In this document: piece by piece, positions 37,759-39,420 of the stretch
Layout: each line of letters starts with the position of its first letter
Numbering within the stretch: position 1 is the stretch's first letter
Assembly (NCBI RefSeq): GCF_009914755.1
Contig: NC_060942.1
Strand: one strand, 5' to 3'
DNA length: 64,000 nt
Origin: the human T2T-CHM13v2.0 reference genome, Homo sapiens
Made by a program: the position numbers and the translations under genes
The notes under the pieces: model-generated
Database searches by the model: none
What the model saw: only the letters and a program-made list of their open reading frames with translations
Told to the model about the DNA's origin: nothing

Positions 37759-37956
37759 AACCCGTCCCAGCGCCTGAGTCTCAGCGCAATCGGGAGGTTT
37801 CGCAGCGGGGCAGGGGAAGGGCCCGGAGCCACCGCCATCGCAGCCCGGGGGAACGACGGACTCGGGGAAGCCCGGCCTGGCCCTTCAAGTCCCGGGCCCA
37901 GCAAAGGCCAGGACCCTCCCTCCCTCCCTCCCTGCAATCGGTCCCCAAACATTCGC
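37759..37956. repeat. Inverted repeat arm 1 (donor, NARS1 intron 1)
   Basis: Reverse complement aligns by eye to 39131-39319 with about 8 substitutions and a few short indels. Confidence 0.95.
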
Positions 37957-38061
37957 GGGGCGCCCACTCTGGTAGGCACTAAGGAAAGCGCCGAAACCCG
38001 GCTGGAGCAGAGTTCCTGCCCCAGGCAGGGAACACCGCGCCATACACTGAGTCTCACCCAC

Positions 38062-38071
38062 CTAGCACCAT
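38062..38071 (-). CDS. NARS1: Cytoplasmic asparaginyl-tRNA synthetase exon 1, coding part (10 nt)
   Basis: ATG GTG CTA G then donor GTGGGT, inside a CpG island; joins exon 2 to give MVLAELYVSD. Confidence 0.93.
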
Positions 38072-39029
38072 GCCTGCAGTGGCCCTGGTCACCTCCAAGG
38101 ACACAGACTGCAACACCGACGCCGTCTTATGACTCCAACGTGCACCGGCGGTTTCCGCGATTCCGGCGTTGCATCAGAGAGCGTAGATCTGAGGGCGCCT
38201 GCGAGAATCGGCCGAGCGCCGCGGTTCCATTGGTTACGAGAGGTGGGCGAGCGGCGCCGGGGCCGCCATCTTTGGTGAGGGCAGAGGCAACTTCCGGATC
38301 CAGAGACGCCCCGCCCCACGCGTTTGTGCAGCTCGGAAGGCGCTGCCTGTCCCGGAGCTCCGCGGCCCTGGAGACCCTGGCACAGTGTCACTTTTGCACC
38401 CTTCCTTCCCCGCCTCCCCAACTTTCCTTTCTGAATCTTCCAATTCCGCCCCAGCTGGAGGCGTGCGGGTCCTCTTGCAAACCAGACCAAGGATGTCGCC
38501 CCGATCCCCAGATGGTGGAGGCTGGTTGAGTTCATGTCACCAGCAAACACCGCGCCAGCTGCGAGACGGGGTGCGCGGCGGTGGAGGGGACGCAGCGGGT
38601 TGCGTAAACTTCCTTTTTTTTTTTTTTTTTTTTTGAGACGGAGTCTCGCTCTGTCACCCAGGCTGGAGTGCAGTGGCGCGATCTCGGCTCACCGCACCCT
38701 CCACCTCCCGGGTTCAAGCGATTCTTCTGCCTCAGCCTCCCGAGTAGCTGGGATTACAGGCCTGTGCCACCATGCCCAGCTAATTTTTGTATTTTTAGTA
38801 AAGACGGGGTTTCACCATCTTAGTCAAGCTGGTCTCGAACTCCTGACCTTGTGATCCGCCCACCTCGGCCTCCCAAAGTGCTGGGATTACAGGCGTGAGC
38901 CATCGCGCCCGGCCAGATGCGTTAACTTTCTAAACTCCGTGAGCCAGCGTCCCTCGGTGTTCAGGAGAGGAGCTATGGTATATGTTCATTTAAAATTGTA
39001 AGGATTACCGTTAGGAAGGCCATAATAAT

Positions 39030-39420
39030 GTGGTGGAAAGAACGAGGGCTTCGGAATACAAACCTGGGTTCTGCCTTTTACTAACCGTGTGTCTTCAGAT
39101 AAATTACCTAAACTGAATGAGCTTCATTCAGCGAGTTGGGACCGATTGCAGGGAGGGAGGGAGGGTCCTGGCCCTTGCTGGGCCCGGGACTTGAAGGGCC
39201 AGGCCGGGCTTCCCCGAGTCCGTTGTTCCCCGGGCTGCGATGGCGGTGGCTCCGGGCCCTGCCCCTGCCCCGCTGCGAAACATCCCGATTGCGCCGAGAG
39301 TCAGGCGCTGAGAGGGGTTTATCTGTGTCTTCAGATAAATTACCTAATCTGAATGAGCTTCAGTTTTTCTATTTGTGAAAGATGATATAAATTCACTGCC
39401 CGGGCATGTAAGAGGTGCTA
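39030..39420. mobile_element. MIR SINE split by the 197-bp templated insertion
   Basis: MIR core-like text (aaacctgggtt...ttactaaccgtgtgtcttcagataaattacctaa...gagcttcagtttttctatttgtgaaa) becomes continuous once the insertion and one duplicate are removed. Confidence 0.65.
39131..39319. repeat. Inverted repeat arm 2 (inserted copy), flanked by 39-bp direct repeats at 39088-39126 and 39324-39362
   Basis: Direct sequence comparison. The ORF track also shows GREGGSWPLLGPGLEGPGRASPSP on opposite strands at the two loci. Confidence 0.95.

What the first reader, a model, noticed from the sequence alone, without database searches (positions are those of the whole stretch)
37759..39362. Inverted copy of NARS1 intron-1 CpG-island DNA inserted upstream of the promoter with a 39-bp target duplication
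Seen: 39131-39319 is the reverse complement of 37759-37956 (about 8 substitutions, a 1-bp and a 4-bp indel, and a ragged end; ~95% by hand). The 197-bp insert (39127-39323) sits between direct repeats tgtgtcttcagataaattacctaa(a/t)ctgaatgagcttca (39088-39126 and 39324-39362, 38/39 identical) and splits a MIR. It has no poly(A), no recognisable transposon sequence and no L1 endonuclease-type site, and the duplication is longer than usual L1 TSDs. The copy keeps 16 CpGs against 17 in the donor, although the surrounding MIR is CpG-poor. Inference: a local templated insertion created a second mini CpG island that has stayed unmethylated in the germline or is homogenised by gene conversion.
Basis: partly seen in the sequence, partly recalled or inferred. 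Interest (0 to 1): 0.8.

Follow-up and report, generated by a model that had tools for sequence, protein, structure and literature searches.

The report
Inverted repair patch upstream of NARS1
About 190 bases of the first intron of NARS1 were copied backwards into a site 1.2 kb away when a broken chromosome was patched in a primate ancestor; this looks like a clean DNA-repair scar, not a new regulatory device.

Summary
39138-39319 is the reverse complement of 37759-37945: 174 of 182 aligned bases match, with a 1-bp and a 4-bp indel. It lies between 39-bp direct repeats that are 38/39 identical. A search of the window's own 3.1-Gb genome finds only these two copies, so this is not a dispersed repeat.

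New here: both junction fillers extend the end of the 39-mer beside them into an 8-bp hairpin. Only 2 of 256 and 1 of 256 possible 4-nt fillers would do this. That is the pattern of snap-back synthesis at two 3' ends. It points to break repair by templated synthesis with 1-2 nt of microhomology, as in polymerase-theta-type end joining or failed SDSA, rather than to L1 activity.

The copy is not a separate mini island. It forms the distal edge of one continuous 1.58-kb CpG-rich domain, 37740-39323, with CpG o/e 0.78 against 0.15 and 0.29 outside. That position is enough to explain why its CpGs survived. Nothing suggests gene conversion.

The divergence (K2P 0.045) suggests an age of about 20 My, range 8-43. 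This is a new example of a known kind of event, of modest interest.

The parts
37759..37956 (-). Donor (arm 1): the NARS1 intron-1 part of the promoter CpG island, 106-303 bp downstream of the exon-1 splice donor. The core with clear homology is 37759-37945. 37946-37956 is the ragged continuation.
   Evidence: Exon and intron positions come from the supplied annotation. No flanking direct repeat longer than 6 nt.
39088..39126 (+). First copy of the 39-bp duplicated target sequence. Its 3' end on the + strand is the left primer terminus in the model.
   Evidence: (D5).
39127..39130 (+). Junction-1 filler, 4 nt. Together with 39124-39126 and 39131 it forms an 8-nt stretch (39124-39131) that is the reverse complement of 39113-39120, with a 3-nt loop at 39121-39123. 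This is a snap-back footprint.
   Evidence: 8-mer match; 2 of 256 fillers pass; terminal hairpin, -6.3 kcal/mol, 3 of 200 shuffles fold as well.
39131..39137 (+). Ragged start of the donor-derived tract. It matches the reverse complement of about 37946-37956 apart from three short deletions. The first base is shared with the snap-back product, giving 1 nt of microhomology.
   Evidence: Read by eye and not statistically testable.
39138..39319 (+). Arm 2 core: the inverted copy of 37759-37945. On the + strand it reads in the sense of NARS1 pre-mRNA.
   Evidence: (174/182), (only 2 copies in the genome).
39320..39323 (+). Junction-2 filler, 4 nt. 39318-39325 is the reverse complement of 39332-39339, with a 6-nt loop at 39326-39331. 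This is a snap-back footprint of the 3' end on the - strand. The two bases 39318-39319 are shared with the donor copy, giving 2 nt of microhomology.
   Evidence: (1 of 256 fillers passes; -6.0 kcal/mol, 2 of 200 shuffles fold as well).
39324..39362 (+). Second copy of the 39-bp duplicated target sequence, with 1 difference from the first copy.
   Evidence: D5, 97%.
38990..39430 (+). Old MIR-like repeat that was the target. The bounds are approximate. It is continuous across the insertion once the insert and one 39-mer are removed.
   Evidence: (the right flank plus the 39-mer aligns continuously with 37340-37407). The family name is recalled, not tested.
38613..38916 (-). Alu lying between the promoter and arm 2. 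It keeps 17 CpGs.
   Evidence: (SRP-type Rfam hits on the - strand).
37740..39323 (.). Continuous CpG-rich domain whose two outer edges are the outer ends of the two arms. It contains NARS1 exon 1 (38062-38190) and the promoter.
   Evidence: o/e 0.78 inside, 0.15 and 0.29 in the 600 bp on either side.

Best explanation
This is the scar of one double-strand-break repair event in a primate ancestor, not a mobile element and not a device.

Shown:
- A break in a MIR-like repeat about 0.9-1.1 kb upstream of the NARS1 start site left two ends that both kept the same 39 nt.
- About 190 nt copied from the intron-1 end of the NARS1 CpG island, 1.2 kb away, lies between those two copies in inverted orientation.
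- At each junction 4 extra bases extend the 3' end of the adjacent 39-mer into an 8-bp hairpin.

Inferred:
- The two ends were 3' tails that overlapped by 39 nt. They arose either from nicks 39 bp apart on opposite strands or from one end being extended 39 nt on the sister chromatid and then failing to re-anneal.
- Each tail folded back on itself and was extended by 5-6 nt (snap-back synthesis).
- One or both tails then primed on the nearby promoter-proximal DNA with 1-2 nt of microhomology and copied about 190 nt. The ends were then joined.
- This is the behaviour described for polymerase-theta-type alternative end joining and synthesis-dependent microhomology-mediated joining. A more processive polymerase probably made the long tract.

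Since then the copy has been a passive passenger at the distal edge of the germline-hypomethylated NARS1 CpG island. That accounts for its retained CpGs.
For: - Two-copy status: only 2 matches in the own genome with arm 2 (2 candidates, 2 scored) and with the 1.1-kb promoter query. In the window each arm matches only the other.
- Direction: arm 2 alone is flanked by a 38/39 duplication, and its flanks align continuously with another MIR-like copy. Arm 1 has no flanking repeat longer than 6 nt.
- No retroelement marks: no poly(A) signal and no run of 5 A or 5 T in the insert. The target boundaries read do not fit TTTT/A.
- Snap-back footprints: 39124-39131 is the reverse complement of 39113-39120, and 39318-39325 of 39332-39339. 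If at least 2 primer bases must pair, 2 of 256 possible fillers at junction 1 and 1 of 256 at junction 2 would give this. At 18,230 ordinary positions in the window the same test passes 1.5% of the time.
- Folding: as single-stranded DNA each terminus with its filler folds into a terminal 8-bp hairpin (-6.3 and -6.0 kcal/mol; 3 and 2 of 200 shuffles fold as well). Without the filler the values are -1.6 and -3.8.
- Literature read here. Pol theta performs snap-back (in cis) and in trans templated extension during end joining, in vitro and in mouse ES cells (PMC4912351, passages). Small tandem duplications form at breaks with complementary 3' overhangs (PMC8355091, abstract and introduction). 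Tandem duplications with microhomology and occasional templated inserts fit end joining of failed SDSA intermediates, and 'patchwork' inserts fit repeated primer-template switching (PMC8654963, passages).
Against: - The long tract (about 186-197 nt) is far longer than typical Pol-theta inserts, whose median was 7 bp in PMC4912351.
- Microhomology to the donor is only 1 and 2 nt.
- In PMC8355091 the small duplications needed NHEJ factors and formed at a comparable rate without Pol theta. The 39-bp duplication therefore does not itself implicate Pol theta.
- I designed the snap-back test after I had seen the palindromes. The filler boundary at junction 1 depends on accepting the ragged 7-nt match as donor-derived.
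- Nothing tells a DNA donor from a nascent-RNA donor, or a two-ended break from a single switching nascent strand.
- No orthologous empty site could be examined.
- The 8 substitutions split 4 transitions to 4 transversions. That is unusual for plain ageing and is unexplained.
Confidence: 0.58

Rival explanations
1. Replicative template switching (FoSTeS/MMBIR or serial replication slippage). A single nascent strand copied the 39-mer, snapped back for 5 nt, jumped to the opposite strand 1.2 kb away for about 190 nt, copied 4-6 nt from the 39-mer's complement, and returned 39 nt behind its point of departure.
For: The same sequence facts fit: inverted orientation, a nearby donor, short templated fillers and 1-2 nt of microhomology. 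The four-point template-switch model allows any order of the switch points (PMC5453318, passages).
Against: In that model the return point (4) precedes the departure point (1) here. PMC5453318 reports that exactly the event types in which '4 precedes 1' were not observed in human-chimp data, because the return would need the new duplex to be opened. The model needs at least four switches on one strand. The two-ended model needs one short snap-back per end, which matches the symmetry seen.
Confidence: 0.2
2. RNA-templated patch. Nascent NARS1 pre-mRNA tethered at the promoter served as the template, reverse-transcribed by Pol theta or L1 ORF2p acting without its endonuclease, as proposed for class 2 templated sequence insertions.
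For: On the + strand arm 2 reads in the NARS1 sense. The donor lies +235 to +432 from the annotated start site, within unspliced intron 1, so it is transcribed and physically close (annotation). Class 2 TSIPs show microhomology and extra nucleotides at junctions and are ascribed to RNA-derived patches (PMC5110952, passages). The sense strand is G-rich (skew +0.12) and carries a G4 motif, which would favour an R-loop (the R-loop link is recalled).
Against: Class 2 TSIPs are defined as lacking target duplications, and their donors are at distant sites. Copying did not run on to the 5' end of the RNA: it stops 234 nt short of the start site. Only one of the two ends could use sense RNA. No feature of the sequence requires RNA.
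Confidence: 0.1
3. L1 ORF2p-mediated insertion of a non-L1 transcript (class 1 templated sequence insertion) with an unusually long target-site duplication.
For: A target duplication is present. Class 1 TSIPs are defined by duplications of at least 5 bp.
Against: No poly(A) tract, no polyadenylation signal and no run of 5 A or 5 T at either end. Neither boundary of the duplication fits the TTTT/A site. No L1 or Alu sequence is attached. Both junctions carry snap-back fillers, which target-primed reverse transcription does not predict.
Confidence: 0.03
4. The pair is kept by selection or homogenised by gene conversion because the inverted repeat that brackets the promoter has a function, for example as an island boundary, a structure-forming element or a second regulatory module.
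For: The outer ends of the two arms coincide with the two edges of the CpG-rich domain. 14 of 17 CpG positions are shared. If arm 2 had been methylated, with CpG transitions 10-15 times faster, 4.6-6.3 of 16 CpGs should be lost, and P(2 or fewer lost) is 0.12-0.02.
Against: The whole interval between the arms, including an Alu and non-repeat DNA, is equally CpG-rich, so location alone explains the retention. Overall divergence is 4.4% with differences along the whole arm and a longest identical run of 49 bp. The RefSeq functional elements listed with the finding (38039-38744, 38124-38463) do not reach arm 2. The clustering of 6 of 8 substitutions in the first 60 columns (p 0.019, with a boundary chosen after the fact) is too weak to show a conversion tract.
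Confidence: 0.07
5. Dispersed repeat family, DNA transposon or assembly artefact.
For: None found.
Against: Only two copies in 3.1 Gb. No Rfam family lies on the arms: all 10 matches lie in Alus. The insert ends are not inverted repeats of each other. A 39-bp duplication fits no transposase family known to me (recalled). The copies differ by 4.4%, and one duplicated 39-mer carries a substitution, which is not what a collapsed or chimeric assembly gives.
Confidence: 0.02

Closest known systems
Templated insertions of polymerase-theta-mediated end joining (snap-back / in cis and in trans extension; 'patchwork' inserts)
   Same: Fillers at both junctions are reverse complements of sequence a few bases inside the same 3' end. 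There is 1-2 nt of microhomology at the next step, and several primer-template switches occurred in one event (PMC4912351; PMC8654963).
   Different: The main templated tract is about 190 nt, from 1.2 kb away. Typical inserts are tens of bases or fewer, copied from the immediate flanks. Dependence on the enzyme cannot be tested from sequence.
Small tandem duplications at breaks with complementary 3' overhangs (CST-Pol alpha fill-in plus NHEJ), or tandem duplications from failed SDSA joined by end joining
   Same: A direct duplication under 100 bp (39 bp) of the sequence at the break, with both copies retained (PMC8355091; PMC8654963).
   Different: The two copies are not head to tail. They are separated by a 197-bp insert. 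The tips were extended by snap-back, not simply filled in and ligated.
Templated sequence insertion polymorphisms, classes 1 and 2 (Onozawa and Aplan)
   Same: A copied piece of transcribed, non-repeat genomic sequence of about 200 bp lies at a break and the donor is left intact. The junctions show microhomology and extra bases as in class 2, and there is a target duplication as in class 1 (PMC5110952).
   Different: It fits neither class. It has a duplication but no poly(A), no signal and no TTTT/A site, so it is not class 1. It has a 39-bp duplication and a donor 1.2 kb away in cis, so it is not class 2 as defined. It is old and presumably fixed, not a known polymorphism.
Short-range template-switch mutations (four-point model of Loytynoja and Goldman)
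   Same: [quoted passage not shown]
   Different: The donor is 1.2 kb away, against search ranges of 100-200 bp. The fragment is about 190 nt, against tens. The switch-point order is 3-2-4-1, with 4 before 1, a class the paper reports as not observed.
MMBIR/FoSTeS complex rearrangements and PCAWG 'local 2-jumps' (Dup-invDup)
   Same: Two local junctions on one derivative chromosome give a duplication linked to an inverted duplication (PMC7025897, figure-legend passage). My knowledge of MMBIR features is recalled.
   Different: Those events span kilobases to megabases, somatic or pathogenic. This one is 39 bp plus about 190 bp, fixed in the germline.

Membership tests
L1 ORF2p-mediated insertion (class 1 TSIP / processed insertion) | Target-site duplication of at least 5 bp | tested here: met
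   39-bp duplication, 38/39 identical. Definition from PMC5110952.
L1 ORF2p-mediated insertion (class 1 TSIP / processed insertion) | Poly(A) tract of 10-40 A and an upstream polyadenylation signal | tested here: not met
   The insert contains 0 AATAAA or ATTAAA on either strand and 0 runs of 5 A or 5 T.
L1 ORF2p-mediated insertion (class 1 TSIP / processed insertion) | Insertion at a TTTT/A-type endonuclease site | tested here: not met
   The boundaries of the duplicated 39-mer, read, do not match the site on either strand.
Class 2 TSIP (break repaired by an RNA-derived patch) | No target duplication; microdeletion, microhomology or extra nucleotides at the junctions | tested here: not met
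   Microhomology (1-2 nt) and 4-nt fillers are present, but so is a 39-bp duplication. Definition.
Class 2 TSIP (break repaired by an RNA-derived patch) | Patch derived from RNA of a distant locus | not testable with these tools
   The donor is transcribed intron 1, 1.2 kb away in cis. Sequence alone cannot tell an RNA template from a DNA one.
Polymerase-theta-type end joining with templated insertion | Inserted bases templated by sequence close to the break end (in cis snap-back or in trans) | tested here: met
   Both fillers complete 8-bp hairpins with the adjacent 3' end. 2 of 256 and 1 of 256 fillers pass, against a 1.5% background.
Polymerase-theta-type end joining with templated insertion | Microhomology at the joining steps | tested here: inconclusive
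   1 nt at junction 1 and 2 nt at junction 2. This is compatible but no more than chance would often give.
Polymerase-theta-type end joining with templated insertion | Dependence on POLQ | not testable with these tools
   This needs genetics. The ~190-nt tract is longer than typical Pol-theta products (median 7 bp in PMC4912351).
Short-range template-switch mutation (four-point model) | [quoted passage not shown] | tested here: met
   174/182 inverted copy from 1.2 kb away.
Short-range template-switch mutation (four-point model) | Switch-point order of an observed type (1 before 4) | tested here: not met
   The order here is 3-2-4-1. Types with 4 before 1 were not observed in PMC5453318.
Dispersed repeat / transposon | Many genomic copies; terminal repeats; a duplication length typical of the family | tested here: not met
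   2 copies in the own genome. No terminal inverted repeats. No Rfam family on the arms. Dfam was not available.
CpG island (length >= 200 bp, GC >= 0.5, o/e >= 0.6; criteria recalled) | Arm 2 meets the criteria on its own, separated from the promoter island | tested here: not met
   Arm 2 is 197 bp with GC 0.69 and o/e 0.69, but no CpG-poor gap separates it from the promoter. 37740-39323 is one domain with o/e 0.78.

The most novel reading that the evidence does not exclude
Promoter-proximal CpG-island DNA may be a preferred donor for long templated repair patches, because its G-rich sense strand with a four-tract G-quadruplex motif is likely to form R-loops. If so, such patches can move CpG-island boundaries. 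Here the event would have extended the NARS1 island by about 200 bp. It also created a 186-bp, 95.6%-identical inverted repeat that brackets the promoter and exon 1. That repeat could still mediate a 1.2-kb inversion that flips exon 1 and silences the allele, which short-read and exome tests for NARS1 disease would miss.
Probability: 0.1. Interest if true: 0.6.

Novelty: new member of a known kind. Interest (0 to 1): 0.3.

Why it matters
This is an unusually legible fossil of error-prone break repair in the primate germline. The donor, the target, both junctions and both short fold-back extensions can still be read base by base after roughly 20 million years. It shows that a single repair event can add about 200 bp to a housekeeping gene's CpG island and set up an inverted repeat around its promoter and first exon.

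There are two practical points. First, the two arms are a mapping hazard for short-read methylation, ATAC and ChIP data at the NARS1 promoter. Second, recombination between the arms would invert exon 1 and the promoter, giving a balanced 1.2-kb change that is hard to detect. That is worth a look in unsolved NARS1 cases and in pangenome data.

None of this amounts to a new biological mechanism.

Tried and rejected
- Showing that the target is a MIR with tools. The own-genome search with the left flank found only itself and the other 39-mer, because the tool is not sensitive to old repeats. nhmmer in the window gave one weak hit (E 0.82). A pairwise alignment with 37340-37407 is only modestly better than shuffles. 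The family name therefore stays a recalled label.
- RNA family on the arms: none. All 10 Rfam matches at E <= 1 lie in Alus.
- An 8-mer shared in the same orientation by the donor's outer boundary (37750-37757) and junction 2 (39323-39330). I tried to fit it as a priming microhomology in break-repair, replication and reverse-transcription models. In each model the orientation gives identity where complementarity is needed, so it is left unexplained. My rough estimate of chance, made by hand and not by a call, is about 1-4%.
- Substitutions clustering near junction 2 as a sign of error-prone synthesis or of a conversion tract. 6 of 8 fall in the first 60 of 182 columns (p 0.019), but I chose the boundary after seeing the data. 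No conclusion is drawn.
- CpG decay as proof of hypomethylation. CpG sites differ at 3 of 33 and other sites at 5 of 149 (p 0.16). The binomial test depends on recalled rate ratios and on an age estimated from 5 events. It is suggestive only.
- Arm 1 as the copy: rejected, because it has no flanking duplication.
- Prior description in print. One search for 'NARS1' with 'inverted repeat' returned a single paper on plant imprinting, judged irrelevant from its listing alone. No other search for this locus was made.
- Primate orthologues, population data and methylation data: no tool here holds them.
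Full report
**1. The observation**

A local alignment of 37730-37990 with the reverse complement of 39080-39370 pairs 37759-37945 with 39138-39319. It has 174 matches, 8 mismatches, a 1-bp gap and a 4-bp gap. The 4-bp gap is one unit of a CCCT/GGGA run. 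The repeat finder finds the same pair independently as I3, I4 and I10. It also finds the direct repeat 39088-39126 / 39324-39362 at 38/39 identity.

Beyond 37945 / 39138 the two sequences can still be matched for about 11 and 7 nt if three short deletions are allowed.

The aligned cores have 16 and 15 CpGs, 14 of them shared.

**2. Not chance, not a repeat family, not an artefact**

- In the 64-kb window each arm has only the other as a significant match (E 1e-76, next best E 0.41).
- A self-comparison of the window gave 413 non-self hits. Only 5 pairs of 100 bp or more are low-copy, and this is the only inverted one above 90% identity.
- The window's own 3.1-Gb assembly gives 2 candidates, both scored, and they are the two arms. 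A 1.1-kb query covering the promoter and arm 1 finds only itself and arm 2. The tool warns that counts of common repeats are lower bounds, but nothing here behaves like one.
- Rfam at E <= 1 gives 10 matches in 37000-40000, all inside Alus and none on the arms.
- The copies differ by 4.4% and the two 39-mers differ by one base. An assembly duplication would not look like that. I could not check reads.

**3. Which copy is the insert**

Arm 2 is the insert. It is bracketed by the 39-bp duplication. Its right flank, starting with the 39-mer, aligns continuously with another MIR-like stretch at 37340-37407, and 0 of 300 shuffles reach that score. The left flank is weaker, with 6 of 300 shuffles reaching its score. 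Arm 1 has no flanking direct repeat longer than 6 nt.

Calling the target a MIR rests mainly on my recall of that family. The genome search is not sensitive enough to find old MIR copies, and nhmmer gives only E 0.82.

**4. What it is not**

The insert has no polyadenylation signal on either strand and no run of five A or T. The boundaries of the duplicated 39-mer do not resemble TTTT/A. No L1 or Alu sequence is attached. By the definitions in PMC5110952 (passages read):

- It fails class 1 (L1 ORF2p-mediated) on two of three features.
- It fails class 2 because it has a target duplication and a donor 1.2 kb away in cis.
- Its ends are not inverted repeats of each other, so it does not look like a DNA transposon.

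**5. The junctions (new in this stage)**

Four bases at each junction come neither from the donor nor from the target.

- Junction 1: 39124-39131 is the exact reverse complement of 39113-39120, with a 3-nt loop between them.
- Junction 2: 39318-39325 is the exact reverse complement of 39332-39339, with a 6-nt loop.

At both junctions the extra bases are exactly what results if the 3' end of the adjacent 39-mer folds back on itself and is extended. That end is the + strand on the left and the - strand on the right. On the left, 3 terminal bases pair and 5 are added. On the right, 2 pair and 6 are added. The last 1 and 2 added bases coincide with the first donor-derived bases, which gives the microhomology for the next step.

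If at least 2 primer bases must pair, only 2 of 256 possible 4-nt fillers at junction 1 and 1 of 256 at junction 2 would pass. At 18,230 ordinary positions in the window the same test passes 1.5% of the time, or 4.8% if a single paired base is allowed. Folded as single-stranded DNA, each 3' terminus with its filler forms a terminal 8-bp hairpin (-6.3 and -6.0 kcal/mol; 3 and 2 of 200 shuffles fold as well). Without the filler the same ends give -1.6 and -3.8 kcal/mol, and other pairings are preferred.

Two caveats apply. I framed the test after seeing the palindromes. The junction-1 boundary assumes that the ragged 7 nt are donor-derived.

**6. Mechanism**

The symmetry argues for a two-ended break whose two 3' tails overlapped by 39 nt. 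Two routes to such ends are in print:

- Nicks on opposite strands giving complementary 3' overhangs, which produce small tandem duplications (PMC8355091, abstract and introduction).
- Extension of one end on the sister chromatid followed by failure to re-anneal. End joining then duplicates the copied stretch, with microhomology and occasional templated or 'patchwork' inserts at the junction (PMC8654963, passages).

Snap-back extension in cis, and switching to a template in trans, are documented for polymerase theta in vitro and in mouse ES cells (PMC4912351, passages).

My reading is therefore as follows. Each tail snapped back for 5-6 nt. One or both tails then primed on the NARS1 promoter-proximal DNA 1.2 kb away and copied about 190 nt. 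The ends were joined through 1-2 nt of microhomology.

The steps shown are the duplication, the inverted copy, the fillers and their complementarity. The steps inferred are the polarity of the overhangs, the enzymes, and whether one or both ends copied the donor.

Points against a pure Pol-theta reading:

- The tract is far longer than its usual products (median 7 bp).
- In PMC8355091 the small duplications needed NHEJ factors and did not need Pol theta.

**7. Rival mechanisms**

- **Replicative template switching.** A single nascent strand switching templates (MMBIR/FoSTeS) fits the same bases. It needs at least four switches and a return 39 nt behind the point of departure. In the four-point model this is order 3-2-4-1. 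PMC5453318 reports that types in which '4 precedes 1' were not seen in human-chimp data. I give this 0.2.
- **Nascent-RNA template.** On the + strand arm 2 reads in the NARS1 sense. The donor is unspliced intron at +235 to +432. The sense strand is G-rich (skew +0.12) and carries G-quadruplex motifs. A nascent-RNA template cannot be excluded, but nothing requires it. I give this 0.1.

**8. Age**

K2P distance is 0.045, from 4 transitions and 4 transversions in 182 sites. With recalled long-term primate rates of 1.0-1.2e-9 per site per year, this gives about 19-23 My. The Poisson range is 8-43 My. The one difference in the 39-mers is compatible with this.

If part of the differences arose during error-prone synthesis, the event is younger. 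The even split of transitions and transversions is unusual and unexplained.

**9. The CpG question**

The profile says otherwise.

- Every 200-bp window from 37700 to 39399 has CpG o/e of 0.46-1.23. This includes the Alu at 38613-38916 (17 CpGs, o/e 0.75) and the stretch 38917-39087 (o/e 0.97).
- The drop comes only at 39324 onward (o/e 0.27-0.31).
- 37740-39323 is one 1584-bp domain with GC 0.61, 115 CpGs and o/e 0.78. The flanking 600 bp have o/e 0.15 on the left and 0.29 on the right.
- That Alu ranks second of the 51 near-full-length Alus in the window for CpG count. The other 50 have a median of 7 and a maximum of 18.

Arm 2 is therefore the distal edge of the NARS1 promoter island. Its retained CpGs follow from lying within, or next to, a domain that has evidently escaped CpG decay for a long time.

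Direct support for hypomethylation of arm 2 is only suggestive. CpG sites differ at 3 of 33 and other sites at 5 of 149 (Fisher p 0.16). Under methylation with 10-15 times faster CpG transitions, 4.6-6.3 of 16 CpGs should have been lost. P(2 or fewer lost) is 0.12-0.02, and this depends on recalled rates and on few events.

Gene conversion is not needed. The longest identical run is 49 bp.

**10. Comparison with known kinds, novelty and value**

The event works like end joining with templated insertion at a break with overlapping 3' ends. It is not a member of the L1-mediated class, the class 2 TSIPs as defined, the short-range template-switch class, or any repeat family (see the membership table). 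At a much larger scale it resembles the Dup-invDup 'local 2-jumps' of cancer genomes (PMC7025897, figure-legend passage).

I found no description of this locus in print. One search for 'NARS1' with 'inverted repeat' gave a single paper on plant imprinting, judged irrelevant from its listing alone. That is a thin basis for a claim of absence.

I rate it a new member of a known kind. Its value is as a clearly readable example. It also raises two practical points: ambiguous short-read mapping at the NARS1 promoter, and the possibility that the 186-bp inverted repeat mediates a cryptic inversion of the promoter and exon 1. Interest 0.3.

**11. Limits**

No primate orthologues, population data, methylation data or repeat-family library were available. 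The decisive test, an orthologous empty site, remains to be done.

Noticed in passing
39151-39165 (+) and 37914-37932 (-): Both arms carry a G-quadruplex motif of G3 tracts with 1-nt loops, on the NARS1 sense strand. The donor has five tracts and the copy four, and the 4-bp indel between the arms is one unit of this run. A second, looser G4 motif lies at 39180-39208 / 37871-37899.
   Followed up: partly
37750-37757 and 39323-39330: The same 8-mer, in the same orientation, lies one base outside the outer end of the donor and again across junction 2, where it spans the last filler base plus the start of the second 39-mer. It cannot act as a priming microhomology in any model I tried, because the strands come out identical rather than complementary. 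It may be chance.
   Followed up: partly
38613-38916: The antisense Alu between the promoter and arm 2 keeps 17 CpGs (o/e 0.71-0.75), second of the 51 near-full-length Alus in the window, whose other 50 have a median of 7. It has a long pure T run and flanking direct repeats that are imperfect by eye. Its age relative to the insertion is unknown.
   Followed up: partly
37946-39137: The 1.2-kb spacer between the inverted arms contains the NARS1 promoter and exon 1 (38062-38190). Recombination between the arms would invert it and uncouple exon 1 from exons 2-14. Whether such alleles exist was not testable here.
   Followed up: no
37340-37407: A second MIR-like fragment lies in NARS1 intron 1, about 64% identical to the duplicated 39-mer (D5).
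   Followed up: partly
49045-50313: A GC-rich tandem array with nested periods of about 40, 49, 116-120, 176 and 225 bp lies inside the long masked block 48417-51245. It looks like the VNTR of an SVA element (recalled label). It gave weak chance-level hits to the CCCT run of arm 1.
   Followed up: no
39503-39630 and 38655-38915: Sub-threshold Rfam matches to mir-3135 and mir-1268 (27-61 bits against gathering scores of 80-83) all lie inside Alus. They are Alu-derived look-alikes, not evidence of miRNA genes.
   Followed up: no
59832-60178: A direct, overlapping low-copy duplication of about 189 bp at 94% identity with a 160-bp offset. It was not examined.
   Followed up: no
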